A stretch of DNA of 64,000 nucleotides, taken from sequence record OQ939939. The stretch is one strand, 5' to 3'. The translations under genes and the position numbers were made by a program. Positions 27,464 to 62,461 of the stretch are shown here, in pieces. This stretch comes from Escherichia phage SUT_E1620. The notes under the pieces were generated by a model. The model saw nothing but the letters and a program-made list of their open reading frames with translations, made no database searches and was not told the DNA's origin. Positions within the stretch are counted from its first letter, which is position 1, and each line of letters opens with the position of its first letter.

Positions 27464-28787
27464 CTAATTGTACTGCTTTCTCCGGAGTCATAGTAATAGT
27501 TTTCCATGCATTATTGCGATACACGGCCATACGTCCAGAAGCCTGTCTTAAACCAGTACCTCCTTTCATAATTAAATCTACAACAATCGGATCTAGCTTT
27601 CCGTCAACAATACGTTGAACGCGGCCTGCTAACTGTTCTATGAGAGATTCATTATTAATGAGACTTCCCATTATTAAACAAGACAGCTCGTTAAGAGAAA
27701 TACCTTCTGAGAAGATACTCTGAGCTGCTGCAAGCACACAGGGTCCGCCCTCCGCTACATCTTTCTGGATTCTCAATCGGTCATCCAAAGGAGTTGCACC
27801 TATAATCTCATAGGTTGTAACACCACGTTGAGCGAGAGCTTCTAGTATTGTTTGAATTAGTTCTGTTCTATCACTTACAAAGAGAACCTTATGCCCCATA
27901 GACACATATAAATGTGCTAAGTTTATAATAGTTTCCCGATATTCAGGATGATTATACACATCGTTAGCACGTAATGCCCACGGTACGTTCTGGTTTCCTG
28001 ATAATTCTACAGGCACGGAGTACCTATGGATTGTGGGTGGAACAGTATTATTAACCGGAGGACTAAAGATCTTATATCCAAAGAAGTCTTTGAACATAAC
28101 TTGTAGCCCATCTTTACGTTTTAATGTACCTGATAGACCGATCTTGTAGCGAGCACATGAGATCTCTAGGAAATTAGTGAAAGTTGTAGCTACACAGTGG
28201 TGAACTTCATCAACTATAACAGTACCGAATACCTTAGAAAGATTATTCGCATGTTTGTTCACTGTTTGTATATTACTGACCACGATTGGTGGATCAATGT
28301 TATACTTTCCAGAACCTATAATACCCGGCTCGAATCCAAACCATTTACGAACTTCTGCAGCCCACATTTCACGAATGGATGTGTTAGTGCAGATTACCAG
28401 AGTTTTCTGGCCAAACTTATATGCAAGAGCTAGAGCTAGGATAGTTTTACCAAATCCAGGCTTACCATTGATAATACAAGTATCATCGCACTCTTCATAT
28501 ATAGGAAGCTGATCTTCCTCACGTAGCTTGAACTGAGGTTCTGGTATTTCTACCGGAGCTAACGTGCGTTTGTCAACTAATTCGTATTTTACTCCCTTAG
28601 CATCTAGTAAATCTAGACGCGTAATGGGAATCCACTTAATCTCTTTAGCAACAACACCACTATTCTTATACATAATAGGGTATTTACTAGTCATTGTCTC
28701 GATGTGATAAGTGGTTTGTTTACTACAGTAATCCCAGAGTTCATCATCGGGCTTGAAATAGGCTTTATTAGATATAACAACCTTCAT
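27435..28787 (-). CDS. SF2 DNA helicase (T5 D10-like)
   Basis: 450 aa; Walker A GKPGFGKT, DEAH-like VIVDEVHH, C-terminal helicase domain. Confidence 0.7.
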   Translation of the reverse strand: MKVVISNKAYFKPDDELWDYCSKQTTYHIETMTSKYPIMYKNSGVVAKEIKWIPITRLDLLDAKGVKYELVDKRTLAPVEIPEPQFKLREEDQLPIYEECDDTCIINGKPGFGKTILALALAYKFGQKTLVICTNTSIREMWAAEVRKWFGFEPGIIGSGKYNIDPPIVVSNIQTVNKHANNLSKVFGTVIVDEVHHCVATTFTNFLEISCARYKIGLSGTLKRKDGLQVMFKDFFGYKIFSPPVNNTVPPTIHRYSVPVELSGNQNVPWALRANDVYNHPEYRETIINLAHLYVSMGHKVLFVSDRTELIQTILEALAQRGVTTYEIIGATPLDDRLRIQKDVAEGGPCVLAAAQSIFSEGISLNELSCLIMGSLINNESLIEQLAGRVQRIVDGKLDPIVVDLIMKGGTGLRQASGRMAVYRNNAWKTITMTPEKAVQLAKIAFGNCS

Positions 28788-29281
28788 AATTTTATTCTAA
28801 GTCTAGGAATTTCAGGCTCCTCTTGATGGACTTGATAAATAACAGGGCTATTATTTACCAGAATATAGCTTATATAAGCTGGAACATAGGATAGCACGAA
28901 TGGATACGGGACTTTAGCCACATAGCATTGATACTTTCCATTATAAATTCTTGCAGAATGCAGAACTTTAGATGTGCTAACATCATAGAACGTAGTTTTC
29001 TTCCAGTTAATGAGATTTCCATCAGAATCTATGAACTGGCTACGCTTTGACCCAACTAATTGGGACAACATTGATATTCTACCACGAATAGGATAGAGCT
29101 TATAAGGTAATTCTTTCCGCTTCTCAAATAAGGCTAACCTACGTTGAGAGAATGTGCCAGGCAACTCCCTGTTATCTAACACATATTTATTATATCTTGT
29201 TGTAATTATGGAATAATCACCTTCCTGCTCAATTGATACAAACGCCCGTAAAGCATATACGGGCAATTTGAAATCAAGCAC
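28784..29281 (-). CDS. hypothetical protein
   Basis: 165 aa; coupled between polymerase and helicase genes. Confidence 0.35.
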   Translation of the reverse strand: MLDFKLPVYALRAFVSIEQEGDYSIITTRYNKYVLDNRELPGTFSQRRLALFEKRKELPYKLYPIRGRISMLSQLVGSKRSQFIDSDGNLINWKKTTFYDVSTSKVLHSARIYNGKYQCYVAKVPYPFVLSYVPAYISYILVNNSPVIYQVHQEEPEIPRLRIKL

Positions 29282-31841
29282 CTAAAATCCTTTTCACATT
29301 ATCCAGATCTTTACATACAGCAATAAACTTATCATCCTTGTACTTGCTGTGGTCTGGATGCTCTTTATCCATTGCAGCTAACTTCTTATACTCGAAATCT
29401 GCATCGAGTAATACACCCTTAACATAACGAGTATACTCATCATCATCAATACAAGCGATTGATGGGTGCTGTTTCTTCATCTTACCACAAGAGTAGTCAC
29501 GAGAACCACCTTTCTCAGAATCAGAATCAATACCGATTGGGCAGCCAGGGATACTAATACCACGATCCTTCTGGATGTTACGAATCAGAATCTCGTTATA
29601 CTGATCGATCAGATCTTCACGTACAATGGCAACCACGGAGTCGTGAACCAACATGACGATCTTCATCTCTTTTCCTAGACCCAGGGACAGGATTTCTTCA
29701 TCAGCATCAATAGCCCCTAACAGGAGACTATCAGAAGATGCAGACTGAATGATTGCGTTAAATCCAGAACGGATTTCTTCACCCTGAACACCACGATCTT
29801 CGGAATGGATGTTATGCAGACGACGCTTACGACCAAAGTGACTATAGATGAATCCAAAGTTCTTGATCTGATCGTGGCACTTATCAATCCAACGCTTAAG
29901 CTGAGGGAACTGACCGAAGTAAGTTTCGATATAGTCCTTCGCATCTGCAACGGTACATTCAACAAACGGTTCGCCTGTCTTAGCGGCCTGTTCCAGAAGA
30001 GCTTCGTTAACAGAGTGAGCGACTTTAGCTGGGCCAGAACCATACAGAATACCGAAGGTAATTGCCTTAGCAGCCTGACGCAGAGCTGGGAACAACTTCT
30101 TAACATCACGCGGTTCACAGGTCAGTTTAAATACCATGTGTGCGATGTTTGAGTGGAAGTCAGGATATTTATCAGGTTCATTCTTCATGTTGATAAATAC
30201 TTGTTGCATATTTCTGTCACCAGACAGAACAGCAGCATAGTAAACTTCCGCAGTTGTTAAGTCCCATGCAATTACACGATATCCAGGAGGAGCTACTACA
30301 CAACCCTTGATAATAGATTCATCACGTGGTAACTGTTGTAGGTTCAGCTTACCAGAAGAACTCAGACGACCAGAAGTAGTCATATGTTCGTGGAAACCGG
30401 TACGAATACAACCATCTGCATCGATGCTCAGAAGAATCTTCTCAACATATGTAGAGATCAGCTTAGTCAGCTTACGAATCTCTAGCAGAGTTTTAGCAAT
30501 CGGATGCTGAGTAGCCAATTCATTCAGAGCTTCTGCGTTTGTAGAATCTGCACCTGTATCTGTCAGTTTACCAGTTGGAGTCAGACCAACATAATCAAAC
30601 AGAAGAACACGAAGTTGCTTAACAGAGTTCGGGTTAAATGCTTCGTTCTGATCTTTCTCTAGCTGAACGACTTCTGGATAAGTATACAGCTTTTCACGAG
30701 CCTTGTTCAGGTTGTGAGTTAACTGATACTGAGCTTCTTTCAAGCGATCAACAGAAATCGGTACACCTCGATCTTCAACACGTTGAAGGAATACACAACC
30801 AGGCATCAGAACGTCATAGTACAGACTGCAAAGCTTTTCATTCTTCTCAATTTTTGGTAAGAAGAAGTTATGCAGACGCAGAGTAGCATCGGTATCTTTT
30901 GCAGCATATGGCCACATAATATCAAATGGAATCAGATCATAGCTGAAATCCTCTTTTTTGATCTTATGTGCCTTGCAATAATCATCCTTGAACTTATCCA
31001 GTTCAAAGTCGTAATCGCCCATGTCAGTATACTTCATAGCCAGAGATTTCAGGCCGTGGGTACCACGACGTTCATCGAGAACATAGTGTTGTAACATGGT
31101 ATCGTGAAGTCTACGCTCTTTATGTGCTTTCTCGAAGGAAAGTCCTAGATGATAGGAATAAAAGTGCATATCGAACTTCAAGTTATGGAAAACGATCTGA
31201 TGATTCTTGCTATCCAGAATTTTCTGGAGATAATGTACAGCTACTTCGGTGATACTGTCAGAATCAATATAGACACCCTGATACTCTTGGTGAGACATAG
31301 AAACACCAAGTAGATAACCATCACGAGCGTACAGAGCTGAGGTTTCGGAGTCGAATGCGATAGGACCGATAACCATGTTATACACCATCTTGATGTATTC
31401 TTCAGCTTCATCTGGATCAGTAATAGGACGATAATCACCAGCTTTTGCAATCTTCTCACGACCATTAATAATATCGTGAATACTTTCTACAGTTGCATCG
31501 AAAACTGGTTTCATTTCAGGTTTAAAGTGTAACTGAGCTGGACTAATACTTGCAATCCAATTGGCATAGCCGCCATGCTCTACACGTTTACCAGTATAAT
31601 CACCGATACCTTTCTTACCTGCGAAATACAGGAAAGGTTCAGCACCAACTAGTACAACAAAATCGTAATCGTTCGGATCGAACGGGTTATCTGGAGTTCC
31701 GATTGTAATATGCTTTTTCAGCAAACGGCCAGATAACTTCTCGTTACACATATGGAATACATCAACTTCCTCACCATAAAGCTGGAAGTGTTTATCATAA
31801 CGAGTGTTATTTAGAGCTTTATCAACTACTGCAATTTTCAA
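29274..31841 (-). CDS. family A DNA polymerase with 3'-5' exonuclease domain (T5 polymerase-like)
   Basis: 855 aa; exo motif FDSETS; pol motif B RQAAKAITFGILYGSG; motif C VHDS. Confidence 0.85.
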   Translation of the reverse strand: MKIAVVDKALNNTRYDKHFQLYGEEVDVFHMCNEKLSGRLLKKHITIGTPDNPFDPNDYDFVVLVGAEPFLYFAGKKGIGDYTGKRVEHGGYANWIASISPAQLHFKPEMKPVFDATVESIHDIINGREKIAKAGDYRPITDPDEAEEYIKMVYNMVIGPIAFDSETSALYARDGYLLGVSMSHQEYQGVYIDSDSITEVAVHYLQKILDSKNHQIVFHNLKFDMHFYSYHLGLSFEKAHKERRLHDTMLQHYVLDERRGTHGLKSLAMKYTDMGDYDFELDKFKDDYCKAHKIKKEDFSYDLIPFDIMWPYAAKDTDATLRLHNFFLPKIEKNEKLCSLYYDVLMPGCVFLQRVEDRGVPISVDRLKEAQYQLTHNLNKAREKLYTYPEVVQLEKDQNEAFNPNSVKQLRVLLFDYVGLTPTGKLTDTGADSTNAEALNELATQHPIAKTLLEIRKLTKLISTYVEKILLSIDADGCIRTGFHEHMTTSGRLSSSGKLNLQQLPRDESIIKGCVVAPPGYRVIAWDLTTAEVYYAAVLSGDRNMQQVFINMKNEPDKYPDFHSNIAHMVFKLTCEPRDVKKLFPALRQAAKAITFGILYGSGPAKVAHSVNEALLEQAAKTGEPFVECTVADAKDYIETYFGQFPQLKRWIDKCHDQIKNFGFIYSHFGRKRRLHNIHSEDRGVQGEEIRSGFNAIIQSASSDSLLLGAIDADEEILSLGLGKEMKIVMLVHDSVVAIVREDLIDQYNEILIRNIQKDRGISIPGCPIGIDSDSEKGGSRDYSCGKMKKQHPSIACIDDDEYTRYVKGVLLDADFEYKKLAAMDKEHPDHSKYKDDKFIAVCKDLDNVKRILGA

Positions 31842-58379: not shown

Positions 58380-58408
58380 TTGCTAAACGCTTCAAAATTT
58401 CGTATAAT
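58380..58408 (+). promoter_or_regulatory. T5-type early promoter
   Basis: TTGCTA-17-TATAAT followed by CTCATAAATTGATCAACAAAAAGGAAAACAA leader. Confidence 0.55.
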
Positions 58409-59280: not shown

Positions 59281-59493
59281 ATGCGTAACTTCGTTGCAAA
59301 GAATGATTTTAACCGTGCTAGCACTCACAAGTCTGCTAGAGACTACACTCGTCTTTCTAAACATGAGCTTCTAGAAGAAATCATGGAAGAAAACTGGGAT
59401 GTTAGTGAAAATGGAACAGACCTGTTTGAAGAAGAGGAACTTCCTCTGAAAGACCCCAAACAGTGGGAGTCTATTAAAGAGACAGCTCTTTAA
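59281..59493 (+). CDS. hypothetical protein
   Basis: 70 aa. Confidence 0.4.
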   Translation: MRNFVAKNDFNRASTHKSARDYTRLSKHELLEEIMEENWDVSENGTDLFEEEELPLKDPKQWESIKETAL

Positions 59494-59523
59494 TAGTTTT
59501 CTACAACAATAAAGGACATAATT

Positions 59524-60225
59524 ATGAAATTCAAGCCCTTTGGTATGCTGGACATTGAATCTCTAGGTACTCCAGGAAATTGCGGTACTACTCATATTGC
59601 AATGCCTTCTTTCGCTTTTGTAGCGATGCACGGAATTGATAAAGATCCTGATCTGGTATTCGTTACTCTAGACGTTCAAGATCAGCTTAATGCGGGTGCT
59701 AAGGTAACTGCCTCTACTATTGCATTCTGGATGGATCAAGCTAAAAACAGTCCATCTGCGCTCCATATTATGGAGGCTCTAAATGGTCGTAATCCTAAAC
59801 TGATTGCCTTCCGTGATGGTAAGCATCACTGCACTAATGACGTAGGCTCTAATTATGCTGCCTTCTCTATGGCTCAGAACATTATGGAATTGTCTCTAGG
59901 AGATAATGCTCTGTATTACGGCAATGGCCCAGAGTTTGATATGACAATCTACTCTGCAAATACGTTCCATGCCGGAACCAATGAAGAAATAGTTCCGTGG
60001 AAATTCTGGAACTTAGGTAACGTTCGATCTTTCCGTAATCAGTGGATGCAAGCTGGTTATAGCTATAAAGATCTAGAAGCCGAAGGTGCTAGCTGGGCAA
60101 AAGCTAAAATGGAAAAAATGGACACCATTCGTTATGGAATCTACCCTGTGAAGCATGATCCAGCATTCGATGCTTTAGTTGAAAGTTATTGTGTAGCCGT
60201 CATGATCGAAAAAATCAAAATTTGA
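59524..60225 (+). CDS. putative DEDDh-family 3'-5' exonuclease
   Basis: 233 aa; N-terminal MLDIESLG (Exo I D-x-E) and C-terminal HDPAFDA (Exo III H-x4-D). Confidence 0.45.
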   Translation: MKFKPFGMLDIESLGTPGNCGTTHIAMPSFAFVAMHGIDKDPDLVFVTLDVQDQLNAGAKVTASTIAFWMDQAKNSPSALHIMEALNGRNPKLIAFRDGKHHCTNDVGSNYAAFSMAQNIMELSLGDNALYYGNGPEFDMTIYSANTFHAGTNEEIVPWKFWNLGNVRSFRNQWMQAGYSYKDLEAEGASWAKAKMEKMDTIRYGIYPVKHDPAFDALVESYCVAVMIEKIKI

Positions 60226-60529: not shown

Positions 60530-61171
60530 ATGATGACTACTCGTATCTCTAAAACTCGTGCTCTGGCAACTATCAAGTCTCTGGAAGCTAAAATCCGTAA
60601 AGCTACTGAACAACAGCTTTTGATTGCTGTTGGTGAAGGTAAAGACAAGAATCAAGTTGTCGTTGGTGCTGCAATCGAAGTAGATGCTCTGTCTACTCGT
60701 ATTAAAACTGATTTCCAGTCTCTGCTGGATATGATGACCCAGCGTGATCATCTGAAAGCAGCGCTGATCAAGAGCAATGCTGAAACTGTTGTAGAGATCG
60801 GTTCCCGCTCTATGACTGTTGCGGAAGCAATCGAAGCTAAGCGTTCTATGGAACTCAAAGCTCAGTTGCTGGCTAACATGCGTAAGCAGTTCCATGCTGC
60901 TACTGTTAAGTTTAACACTCAGAAGGCTCAGTTTGATGCCAAGTATGAGCGTTTGCAGGATACCATGGCTACCCGCGATAAGAAGACTTCCGAGGATGAA
61001 GTTAAGATGCAGCTTAACCTGCTGGAACTCAAGAACACTCCGTTCCTGATCGATCCGCTGGAGCTGGAAAAGCTGATCAAGCAACACGACGAAGAATACC
61101 AGGACTTTGCAACCAACGTTGACTTTGTTCTGTCTGAGTCCAACGCCTCTACTTTTATCGAAGTAGAGTAA
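60530..61171 (+). CDS. hypothetical coiled-coil protein
   Basis: 213 aa; host-like codon usage. Confidence 0.45.
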   Translation: MMTTRISKTRALATIKSLEAKIRKATEQQLLIAVGEGKDKNQVVVGAAIEVDALSTRIKTDFQSLLDMMTQRDHLKAALIKSNAETVVEIGSRSMTVAEAIEAKRSMELKAQLLANMRKQFHAATVKFNTQKAQFDAKYERLQDTMATRDKKTSEDEVKMQLNLLELKNTPFLIDPLELEKLIKQHDEEYQDFATNVDFVLSESNASTFIEVE

Positions 61172-61614: not shown

Positions 61615-61932
61615 ATGACTTTACATATTTTGTTTGATGATGTACGTGACTTAAATGGAATGGATATCATCATCAGAAACCCTGATGTAGCGTACGAAAT
61701 GCTCTATCAGTTACAACTCCAGGGTAATTATCTTTATTTAGATAATGACATGGGTAGTAAAGTAGAAGGCCACCATTTGTTAAGTCGTATCCTAGAAGAT
61801 AAAGATTTGTACCCTAAAAAGGTGGTTTTAGTCACCAGCAATTCTGTTGCTGCAGAAAATATGCGCCAACAGTTAAAAACAGCTGGTTATCAAGAAAACC
61901 CCAATCGTATTGAGTACGATTGGCAGGAGTAA
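61615..61932 (+). CDS. hypothetical protein with receiver-domain-like pattern
   Basis: 105 aa; ILFDDVRD ... YLDNDMG ... VVLVTSNS ... K pattern loosely resembles CheY-like receiver fold; own promoter. Confidence 0.3.
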   Translation: MTLHILFDDVRDLNGMDIIIRNPDVAYEMLYQLQLQGNYLYLDNDMGSKVEGHHLLSRILEDKDLYPKKVVLVTSNSVAAENMRQQLKTAGYQENPNRIEYDWQE

Positions 61933-61936
61933 ATAA

Positions 61937-62461
61937 ATGGAAATAACCCAGGAAAACCTATTATCCTTATTTCACTACAATAGTGAGGAAGGTAGATTGT
62001 ACTGGAAAGCTAATCCCAATAAAGCCCCTGCATGGAATGCCAAATGGGCGGATAAGCCTGCTGGGGCTAAAGATGGGAAATCAATAGTAGTGTCCATTGA
62101 TAATAAATCATACAGACACCATAGATTAGTATTTTTATATCATAAAGGATACTTACCAGTACAAGTTGATCATAAAGATAGGACTAGGCATGACACTAAT
62201 CCTTTCTGCGATAAAATAGAAAATCTCAGAGACGCCACTCATTCACAAAATAATGCTAATAAAGATATTGGGAAGGCCAATACTTCTGGCTATAAAAATG
62301 TGTATAAAACACATCAAGGGTGGAGGGTTATTGTAAAGAAAGATAAAAAGCCTATAGAGGGCGGAACCTTTCTTAGTCTAAAAGAAGCGGTAGATGTAGC
62401 AAATGATTTAAGGTTTGACCTATTCGGTGAATTTGCACTATACCAGCCGTATAAGGAGTGA
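61937..62461 (+). CDS. HNH homing endonuclease with AP2-like domain
   Basis: 174 aa; SYRHHRLVFLYHKGYLPVQVDHKDRTRHDTN HNH motif; C-terminal YKNVYKTHQGWRV AP2-like. Confidence 0.65.
   Translation: MEITQENLLSLFHYNSEEGRLYWKANPNKAPAWNAKWADKPAGAKDGKSIVVSIDNKSYRHHRLVFLYHKGYLPVQVDHKDRTRHDTNPFCDKIENLRDATHSQNNANKDIGKANTSGYKNVYKTHQGWRVIVKKDKKPIEGGTFLSLKEAVDVANDLRFDLFGEFALYQPYKE

What the first reader, a model, noticed from the sequence alone, without database searches (positions are those of the whole stretch)
59524..60225. Putative DEDDh 3'-5' exonuclease among early genes
It has an N-terminal MLDIESLG (D-x-E) and a C-terminal HDPAFDA (H-x4-D). A standalone DEDDh exonuclease not fused to the polymerase could process RNA, or degrade host DNA or small nucleotide signals; phage nucleases of other folds are known to degrade defence second messengers, so this is worth testing.
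Basis: inference. Interest (0 to 1): 0.45.

Follow-up and report, generated by a model that had tools for sequence, protein, structure and literature searches.

The report
T5-type DexA-like 3'-5' exonuclease gene
The ORF is a real, standalone DEDDh 3'-5' exonuclease of a T5-like phage, a distant relative of phage T4 exonuclease A (DexA), so it is an ordinary member of a known family, though it has a conserved small partner gene and a conserved RNA hairpin just upstream.

Summary
ORF 59524-60225 (+) encodes 233 aa. D10/E12, D139 and H211/D216 are invariant in 25 homologues that go down to about 37% identity. The window is an Epseptimavirus (T5-like), and the gene is the orthologue of T5.087. 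Public records call it "exonuclease" or, from an old weak InterPro match, "metallopeptidase".

The most likely function is a Mg2+-dependent 3'-5' exonuclease acting on ssDNA or oligonucleotides, used in nucleotide salvage, recombination or homing. This is inferred, not shown. The idea that it degrades cyclic second messengers has no support, and such molecules lack the free 3' end this chemistry needs.

Two new details emerged. The 70-aa DUF7230 gene immediately upstream is always adjacent, and it is fused to the exonuclease in Klebsiella T5-like phages. A 19-bp RNA hairpin at the gene junction (59463-59504) shows strong covariation across Demerecviridae.

Overall this is a known kind of enzyme and interest is low to moderate.

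The parts
59524..60225 (+). Exonuclease gene (233 aa plus stop). It is the orthologue of T5.087 and a DexA-family DEDDh 3'-5' exonuclease.
59545..59568 (+). Exo I motif MLDIESLG, with catalytic D10 (59551-59553) and E12 (59557-59559).
   Evidence: D10 and E12 are invariant in A1. They align with DexA D7/E9.
59917..59952 (+). Exo II motif YGNGPEFDMTIY, with catalytic D139 (59938-59940).
   Evidence: G133, N134, G135, F138 and D139 are invariant. D139 aligns with DexA D119.
60154..60174 (+). Exo III motif HDPAFDA (H-x4-D), with H211 (60154-60156) and D216 (60169-60171).
   Evidence: H211 and D216 are invariant. They sit at the start of the last helix of the model (H213-231). MAFFT aligns them with DexA H190/D195.
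59511..59516 (+). Shine-Dalgarno-like AAAGGA, 7 nt upstream of the exonuclease ATG.
   Evidence: Read directly from the sequence. An AAGGA-type site is kept at the same place in relatives.
59463..59504 (+). Conserved RNA hairpin at the junction between the DUF7230 gene and the exonuclease gene. The inner 11-bp stem is 59471-59496 and the outer 8-bp stem is rich in G.U pairs. It contains the tandem stops TAA-TAG of the upstream ORF.
   Evidence: Fold energy is -19.5 kcal/mol with z -4.2. On 11 distinct sequences 95.6% of cells pair, against 41-50% in slid controls. Seven of 19 pairs change on both sides. G.U pairs at two positions are nearly invariant. The covariance model scores 69.6 bits on the + strand and 24.2 on the - strand, and there is a single copy in the window. 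There is no Rfam family.
59281..59493 (+). DUF7230 small gene (70 aa; T5.088 orthologue). It has a highly conserved basic N-terminal motif MRNFVAKNDFNRASTHKSxRDYTR and an acidic tail. It is always directly upstream of the exonuclease and is fused to it in some relatives.
   Evidence: Pfam PF23876 at 27.7 bits and phrog_4586. Adjacency was seen in all 9 metagenomic contigs examined, and T5 and Kamaji have the same layout. Fusion proteins of 324-334 aa are P0015, P0020, P0021, P0026 and Klebsiella phage Roth49.
58447..58962 (+). DUF7022 gene (171 aa; T5.089 orthologue), the first conserved gene of the same block.
   Evidence: PF22887 at E 1.5e-79. It is conserved upstream in 8 of the 9 contigs; in the ninth, L045, the contig ends before that position.
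58380..58408 (+). Sigma-70-like promoter candidate (TTGCTA-17-TATAAT, 10/12) upstream of the DUF7022 gene. It probably drives the block that ends with the exonuclease.
   Evidence: Pattern scan (the number of sites is not above chance). It corresponds in position to the promoter 'P-H 207' annotated upstream of T5.089 in the T5 record.

Best explanation
The gene encodes a standalone, two-metal-ion DEDDh (DnaQ-like) 3'-5' exonuclease of the DexA / Rv2179c-like family (PF16473). It is the T5-lineage counterpart of T4 exonuclease A.

Shown here:
- all five catalytic residues are intact and invariant;
- the fold is DEDDh, and T4 DexA is the nearest solved structure;
- the gene is universally conserved in Demerecviridae, inside the nucleotide-metabolism and replication block of the early region.

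Inferred:
- Like DexA, it removes nucleotides from free 3' ends of single-stranded DNA and short oligonucleotides.
- It would feed dNMPs into the phage nucleotide pool and/or resect 3' ends during recombination and homing-endonuclease-initiated repair. T5-like genomes are full of HNH homing endonucleases.
- The DUF7230 protein encoded just upstream is fused to the nuclease in some phages and is predicted to be mostly disordered. It is inferred to be a partner, either an adaptor or a regulator.
- A conserved RNA hairpin between the two cistrons probably sets their relative expression, as a processing, stability or protein-binding site.
Against: No biochemical or genetic data exist for the T5-type protein; literature searches found nothing.

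From my own knowledge: in T5, host DNA is destroyed by pre-early functions before this early-region gene would be expressed, and host nucleotides are largely not reused. A DexA-style scavenging role is therefore less obvious than in T4.

The AF2 model of the fused form gives no confident contact between the DUF7230 part and the nuclease.
Confidence: 0.6

Rival explanations
1. It is mainly an RNA exonuclease or oligoribonuclease (Rv2179c/Orn/REXO2-like). It would clear short RNAs such as RNase H-released primer fragments, nanoRNAs or host mRNA debris.
Against: The best sequence grouping (PHROG 255) and the best structural match are with DexA, which is a DNA enzyme. Sugar specificity in DEDDh enzymes cannot be read from the fold.
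Confidence: 0.2
2. It is an anti-defence enzyme. It would destroy nucleotide-based immune molecules: linear or 3'-ended species such as retron msDNA or linearised oligoadenylates, or, cyclic oligonucleotide messengers.
Against: There are no PADLOC hits, and no paper in the searchable library reports a phage DEDDh anti-defence enzyme. From established knowledge of the class, DEDDh enzymes need a free 3'-OH end, which cyclic messengers lack. The known anti-signal phage nucleases (Acb1, Apyc1, AcrIII-1) have other folds. The gene is core to all T5-like phages and sits among metabolism genes, not in a variable accessory island.
Confidence: 0.07
3. It is a metallopeptidase, as most GenBank records for T5-like phages call it.
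For: The label 'metallopeptidase' or 'putative metallopeptidase' is on most of the listed orthologues. It traces to a note in the T5 record, 'match to InterPro family IPR000834'. From my own knowledge, IPR000834 is the M14 carboxypeptidase family.
Against: A Pfam scan at E up to 1 returns only PF16473 and no peptidase family. The fold and all invariant residues are those of a DEDDh nuclease. RefSeq curators have already renamed it 'exonuclease'.
Confidence: 0.01
4. It is a trans-acting proofreading subunit for the phage replisome, analogous to Pol III epsilon.
Against: The T5-type family A polymerase in the same window already has a complete 3'-5' exonuclease domain (PF01612, E 1e-37). The nearest relative, DexA, is not a replisome subunit.
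Confidence: 0.04

Closest known systems
Phage T4 exonuclease A (DexA; PDB 8KEL/8KEN; PMC12153337)
Mycobacterium tuberculosis Rv2179c (PDB 4HEC), founder of Pfam PF16473
   Different: Rv2179c is shorter (155 aa in the crystal). It is a bacterial protein described as an exoribonuclease. The Pfam match here covers only residues 8-179 and misses the C-terminal H-x4-D helix.
Oligoribonuclease / REXO2, RNase T, ERI1, Pol III epsilon, TREX1 (classical DEDDh enzymes)
   Different: Sequence identity is 7-13%. No sequence-level hit was found in PDB searches. They have different accessory elements and partners.
T7-type RNase III processing hairpins and intercistronic stabiliser hairpins (for the junction hairpin only)
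   Same: It is an intercistronic hairpin of about 19-20 bp in an early phage operon. It is conserved by covariation rather than by sequence.
   Different: Cleavage has not been mapped. It does not match any Rfam family. In most unfused relatives the closing TAG of the inner stem is the upstream ORF's stop codon. The hairpin persists inside the open reading frame where the two genes are fused.

Membership tests
DEDDh (DnaQ-like) 3'-5' exonuclease superfamily | Exo I motif D-x-E | tested here: met
   D10 and E12 are invariant in 25 sequences and align with DexA D7/E9.
DEDDh (DnaQ-like) 3'-5' exonuclease superfamily | Exo II motif with a conserved Asp | tested here: met
   D139 in GNGPEFD is invariant and aligns with DexA D119.
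DEDDh (DnaQ-like) 3'-5' exonuclease superfamily | Exo III motif H-x4-D (His, not Tyr) | tested here: met
   H211 and D216 are invariant. The nearby Y207 is not conserved, so this is not a DEDDy arrangement.
DEDDh (DnaQ-like) 3'-5' exonuclease superfamily | RNase H-like alpha/beta fold | tested here: met
DEDDh (DnaQ-like) 3'-5' exonuclease superfamily | Metal-dependent 3'-5' exonuclease activity | not testable with these tools
   This needs enzyme assays.
DexA / Rv2179c-like family (PF16473; PHROG 255) | Profile match above the curated threshold | tested here: met
   PF16473 scores 32.2 bits against a cut-off of 27. phrog_255 matches at E 2.5e-52. T4 DexA itself scores 79.9 bits on PF16473 and E 3.6e-91 on phrog_255.
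DexA / Rv2179c-like family (PF16473; PHROG 255) | Closest solved structure is a family member | tested here: met
DexA / Rv2179c-like family (PF16473; PHROG 255) | ssDNA/oligonucleotide preference and a role in nucleotide scavenging or homing | not testable with these tools
   This is known for T4 DexA only (PMC12153337).
DexA / Rv2179c-like family (PF16473; PHROG 255) | Dimer/tetramer assembly and 5hmC-recognising residues (DexA W152, D169) | tested here: inconclusive
   MAFFT places W162 and D183 opposite DexA W152 and D169. W162 is invariant in the T5 clade. Oligomeric state was not modelled.
M14 metallopeptidase (legacy annotation) | Match to a peptidase M14 profile, or a zinc-binding HxxE...H motif | tested here: not met
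   A Pfam scan at E up to 1 returns PF16473 only. The fold is DEDDh.
Phage nucleases that degrade immune second messengers (Acb1, Apyc1, AcrIII-1) | 2H phosphoesterase, MBL or ring-nuclease fold; activity on cyclic nucleotides | tested here: not met
   The fold is DEDDh, so the fold criterion is not met. Activity on cyclic nucleotides could not be tested here.
Intrinsic (rho-independent) terminator (for the junction hairpin) | G+C-rich stem directly followed by a U-run | tested here: inconclusive
   The scan flags it: 11 pairs, only 3 of them G-C, followed by TTTTCT. However, the U-rich tract is itself paired in the outer stem. In relatives L006 and L008 it is replaced by ACCUCUAC and in L007 by AUCUCUAU. 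My1 has a canonical U5 tail.

The most novel reading that the evidence does not exclude
The exonuclease does not act alone. It would be part of a three-piece module conserved throughout Demerecviridae, made of three parts:

- a short disordered protein (DUF7230) whose invariant basic N-terminal motif docks onto a host or phage target;
- the DEDDh nuclease that it delivers, covalently fused in Klebsiella phages;
- a covarying RNA hairpin between the cistrons that tunes their ratio, as an RNase III or protein-binding site.

On this reading the nuclease has a targeted job rather than bulk nucleotide salvage. Examples would be destroying a specific 3'-ended nucleic acid such as retron msDNA, primer-like or signalling oligonucleotides, or host RNA 3' ends.
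Probability: 0.1. Interest if true: 0.6.

Novelty: new member of a known kind. Interest (0 to 1): 0.25.

Why it matters
The main value is corrective. Among the listed orthologues in T5-like phage records, 'metallopeptidase' is the commonest label, yet the protein is a DexA-family 3'-5' exonuclease.

T5 is a classic model and T5-like phages are widely used in therapy and biocontrol collections. Knowing that all of them carry a DexA-type nuclease completes the list of T5 nucleases, alongside D15, the D12/D13 SbcCD-like pair, the polymerase exonuclease domain and RNase H. It also gives a candidate for 3'-end resection during recombination and homing.

Two smaller points can be tested directly and appear to be undescribed. 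One is the conserved DUF7230 partner, which is fused to the nuclease in one lineage. The other is a covariation-supported RNA hairpin at the gene junction.

Tried and rejected
- **Direct PDB sequence searches.** The single-sequence search gave only spurious summed hits to designed armadillo repeats. The profile search gave nothing. Only fold comparison found the relatives.
- **NCBIfam and PADLOC.** No hits.
- **Stop-codon readthrough or gene-60-style translational bypass to make a fusion protein.** Rejected as unsupported. The window has tandem stops TAA-TAG. In T5 the two ORFs are in different frames. I saw no consistent take-off/landing codon pair on inspecting.
- **T4 dexA.1/dexA.2 as DUF7230 equivalents.** No similarity.
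- **AF2 of the natural fusion (P0020).** This was meant to show whether DUF7230 docks on the nuclease. The N-terminal part came out disordered (pLDDT below 50 for residues 1-17 and 60-82), so there is no information on an interface.
- **The hairpin as a repeated regulatory element.** A covariance-model search found a single convincing copy in the 64-kb window. There is no Rfam family.
- **Literature.** Searches for T5.087, T5p085, T5p086 and DUF7230, and for Rv2179c with phage, found nothing relevant. No T5 transcriptome paper was found.
- **ArfA-like resemblance of the DUF7230 motif.** I considered this from memory. It is not supported by the Pfam scan.

Full report
**1. What is there**

The window carries an ATG-to-TAA ORF at 59524-60225 on the + strand, encoding 233 aa. 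No competing long ORF lies on the other strand. An AAAGGA Shine-Dalgarno-like site sits 7 nt upstream of the ATG.

**2. Which genome**

The 5-kb neighbourhood is 99.2% identical to Salmonella phages SE3, SE7 and S132 (Demerecviridae, Epseptimavirus). It matches 445 phage records, essentially all T5-like.

The protein is found in 549 phage records. Identity is 84-100% across Epseptimavirus and Tequintavirus, about 39% in Klebsiella T5-like phages, and 25-37% in more distant phages.

In phage T5 the orthologue is T5.087 (YP_006915.1). That note is the likely source of the 'metallopeptidase' label, which most listed orthologues still carry. From my own knowledge, IPR000834 is the M14 carboxypeptidase family.

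The gene order is nrdA, nrdB, frd, thy, small ORFs, rnh, small ORFs, DUF7022, DUF7230, exonuclease. It is the same as in T5 and S132. This supports 'among early genes'.

**3. Family and fold**

- Pfam gives one family only, PF16473 (Rv2179c-like 3'-5' exoribonuclease domain), at 32.2 bits against a cut-off of 27.
- PHROGs gives phrog_255 'exonuclease' at E 2.5e-52.
- T4 DexA (NC_000866, 8225-8908) belongs to the same two families: PF16473 at 79.9 bits and phrog_255 at E 3.6e-91.
- A profile of 25 homologues aligns with DexA over the Exo I-Exo II region (hhalign E 6e-5, probability 65%).
- In that 25-sequence alignment, with identities down to about 37%, D10, E12, D139, H211 and D216 are invariant. 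So are G15, P17, G133-N134-G135, F138, W162 and R168.
- A MAFFT alignment that includes DexA keeps all five catalytic columns.
- AlphaFold2 with this alignment gives a confident model (pLDDT 88.9, pTM 0.90).
- Foldseek against the PDB was weak. Sequence-only PDB searches failed.
- Foldseek against viral models returns many standalone phage exonucleases, including one annotated DexA.
- The phage family A polymerase in the same window (29274-31841, - strand) has its own PF01612 exonuclease domain. This enzyme is therefore a separate activity.

The fold is DnaQ-like.

**4. Most likely function**

The only characterised close relative is T4 DexA. It is a 3'-5' DNA exonuclease that prefers ssDNA over dsDNA. 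It supplies mononucleotides from host DNA and contributes to 3' resection in intron homing (PMC12153337).

By homology, the T5-type protein most likely removes nucleotides from free 3' ends of ssDNA and oligonucleotides. Two things fit this: its position next to nucleotide-metabolism genes, and the abundance of HNH homing endonucleases in these genomes. One lies at 61937-62461, and others sit directly next to the gene in relatives. The gene could therefore serve salvage, recombination or homing.

From my own knowledge, T5 destroys host DNA with pre-early functions and does not rely heavily on host nucleotides. This weakens a pure scavenging role.

The suggestion that it degrades cyclic second messengers has no support. 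PADLOC gives no hit, and no paper in the searchable library reports a phage DEDDh anti-defence enzyme. It is also mechanistically unlikely, because DEDDh enzymes act on a free 3'-OH end. Linear 3'-ended targets remain possible but are untested.

**5. A conserved partner gene**

The 70-aa ORF directly upstream (59281-59493) matches DUF7230 (PF23876, 27.7 bits; phrog_4586). A DUF7230-type small ORF sits 19-26 nt upstream of the exonuclease gene in all nine metagenomic contigs examined. T5 and Serratia phage Kamaji have the same layout. DUF7022 usually lies further upstream.

In Klebsiella T5-like phages (Roth49, L036, L037) and in metagenomic proteins P0015, P0020, P0021 and P0026, the two are one ORF of 324-334 aa.

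DUF7230 proteins share an almost invariant N-terminal motif, M-R-N-F-V-A-K-N-D-F-N-R-A-S-T-H-K-S-x-R-D-Y-T-R. It is followed by a variable acidic tail.

A profile search of 1.84 billion representative proteins found 61 clusters. Nearly all are proteins of 36-94 aa, and the exonuclease fusion is the only convincing multidomain form.

An AF2 model of a natural fusion keeps the nuclease domain confident. It leaves the DUF7230 part mostly disordered: pLDDT is below 50 for residues 1-17 and 60-82, with one helix at 27-43. This suggests a linear binding motif rather than a folded domain, and gives no evidence of docking on the nuclease. A functional link is inferred from adjacency plus fusion. Its nature is unknown.

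**6. A conserved RNA hairpin at the junction**

The last codons and tandem stops (TAA-TAG) of the DUF7230 ORF lie in a perfect 11-bp inverted repeat: CTATTAAAGAG-ACAG-CTCTTTAATAG, 59471-59496. An 8-bp outer stem extends it to 59463-59504. The fold energy is -19.5 kcal/mol, z -4.2.

Divergent relatives keep the hairpin through compensatory changes. On 11 distinct sequences:

- 95.6% of cells pair, against 41-50% when the partner is slid by 1-3 columns.
- 7 of 19 pairs change on both sides (23 cells; 0 of 500 shuffles reach this).
- One pair shows all four Watson-Crick types.
- Two G.U pairs are nearly invariant.

The G.U pairs point to an RNA structure on the coding strand. So does the asymmetry of the covariance-model score, 69.6 bits on the sense strand against 24.2 on the antisense strand.

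The element is single-copy in the window and matches no Rfam family.

The TAG that closes the inner stem is the upstream stop codon in most unfused relatives. In L007 and L043 it is read in another frame. In the fused Klebsiella genes a shortened hairpin persists inside the ORF, followed by an internal AAAGGA-ATG. The hairpin is therefore selected for itself, not for the stop codon.

A canonical U-run after the stem is not conserved. A processing, stability or protein-binding role therefore seems more likely than a simple terminator. This was not tested.

**7. Comparison with the known, and novelty**

The protein meets every testable defining feature of the DEDDh superfamily and of the PF16473/DexA family. 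It fails the test for the legacy metallopeptidase label. It is a divergent, uncharacterised branch of a known family, and some public records already annotate it as an exonuclease.

No paper on T5.087, T5p085 or DUF7230 was found in the searchable library.

**8. Verdict**

- Observation: confirmed.
- Interpretation as a standalone DEDDh exonuclease: supported.
- Anti-defence speculation: unsupported.
- Interest: low to moderate (0.25). The DUF7230 fusion and the covarying junction hairpin are the only unexpected elements.

Noticed in passing
window 59463-59504 (+): A 19-bp RNA hairpin spans the end of the DUF7230 ORF, 7 nt before the Shine-Dalgarno site of the exonuclease gene. It shows strong covariation across Demerecviridae, has no Rfam family, and occurs once in the window.
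   Followed up: yes
window 59281-59493 (+); L004 2728-3732; P0015, P0020, P0021, P0026: The small DUF7230 protein has an almost invariant basic N-terminal motif and an acidic tail. It is always encoded directly upstream of the exonuclease and is fused to it in Klebsiella T5-like phages. It is predicted to be largely disordered.
   Followed up: partly
window 61615-61932 (+): This 105-aa ORF matches PF20274 cREC_REC ('cyclic-phosphate processing receiver domain', E 1.9e-12). It is the orthologue of T5.084 and is syntenic in most relatives (L006, L007, L041, L044, L046). It might bear on nucleotide-signal or RNA-end processing.
   Followed up: no
window 60530-61171 (+) and neighbouring genes; records listed: Several legacy annotations in this early-region block look wrong. 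The exonuclease is called 'metallopeptidase'. A 213-aa ORF with no Pfam match is called 'tail fiber protein'. A small ORF near phoH is called 'tail length tape measure protein'.
   Followed up: partly
L003 3226-3909 (T4 dexA), compared with window 60154-60171: T4 DexA has two overlapping H-x4-D motifs, H186...D191 and H190...D195. The published figure legend labels H186/D191 as catalytic. The residues invariant in the T5 clade (H211/D216) align by MAFFT with DexA H190/D195. The same legend also lists 'E12', where the D-x-E glutamate is E9.
   Followed up: partly
L007 6329-6565; L043 762-956: Relatives carry small ORFs in the same gene block that match PF21825 'Sequestin'. No equivalent was looked for in the window.
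   Followed up: no
P0076 (60 aa, metagenomic): This looks like a chimera of the DUF7230 N-terminal motif joined to the C-terminal tail of the DUF7022 protein (...YGVGIKFTGKANKPR...). It could be a real deletion variant or an assembly artefact.
   Followed up: no
P0104 (908 aa): A large repeat protein matches the DUF7230 profile six times through a repeated 'IDFNKAPTHD' motif. This is probably a chance or convergent resemblance.
   Followed up: no
window 61937-62461 (+); L042 2178-2633; L045 1244-1549: HNH_3 (and NUMOD4) homing-endonuclease ORFs are inserted at variable positions next to the exonuclease gene in different T5-like phages. This fits a recombination-active region.
   Followed up: no
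window 27643-27681: A weak second match to the hairpin covariance model (15.5-16.8 bits, E 0.06-0.14). It is an AT-rich inverted repeat and probably a chance match.
   Followed up: no
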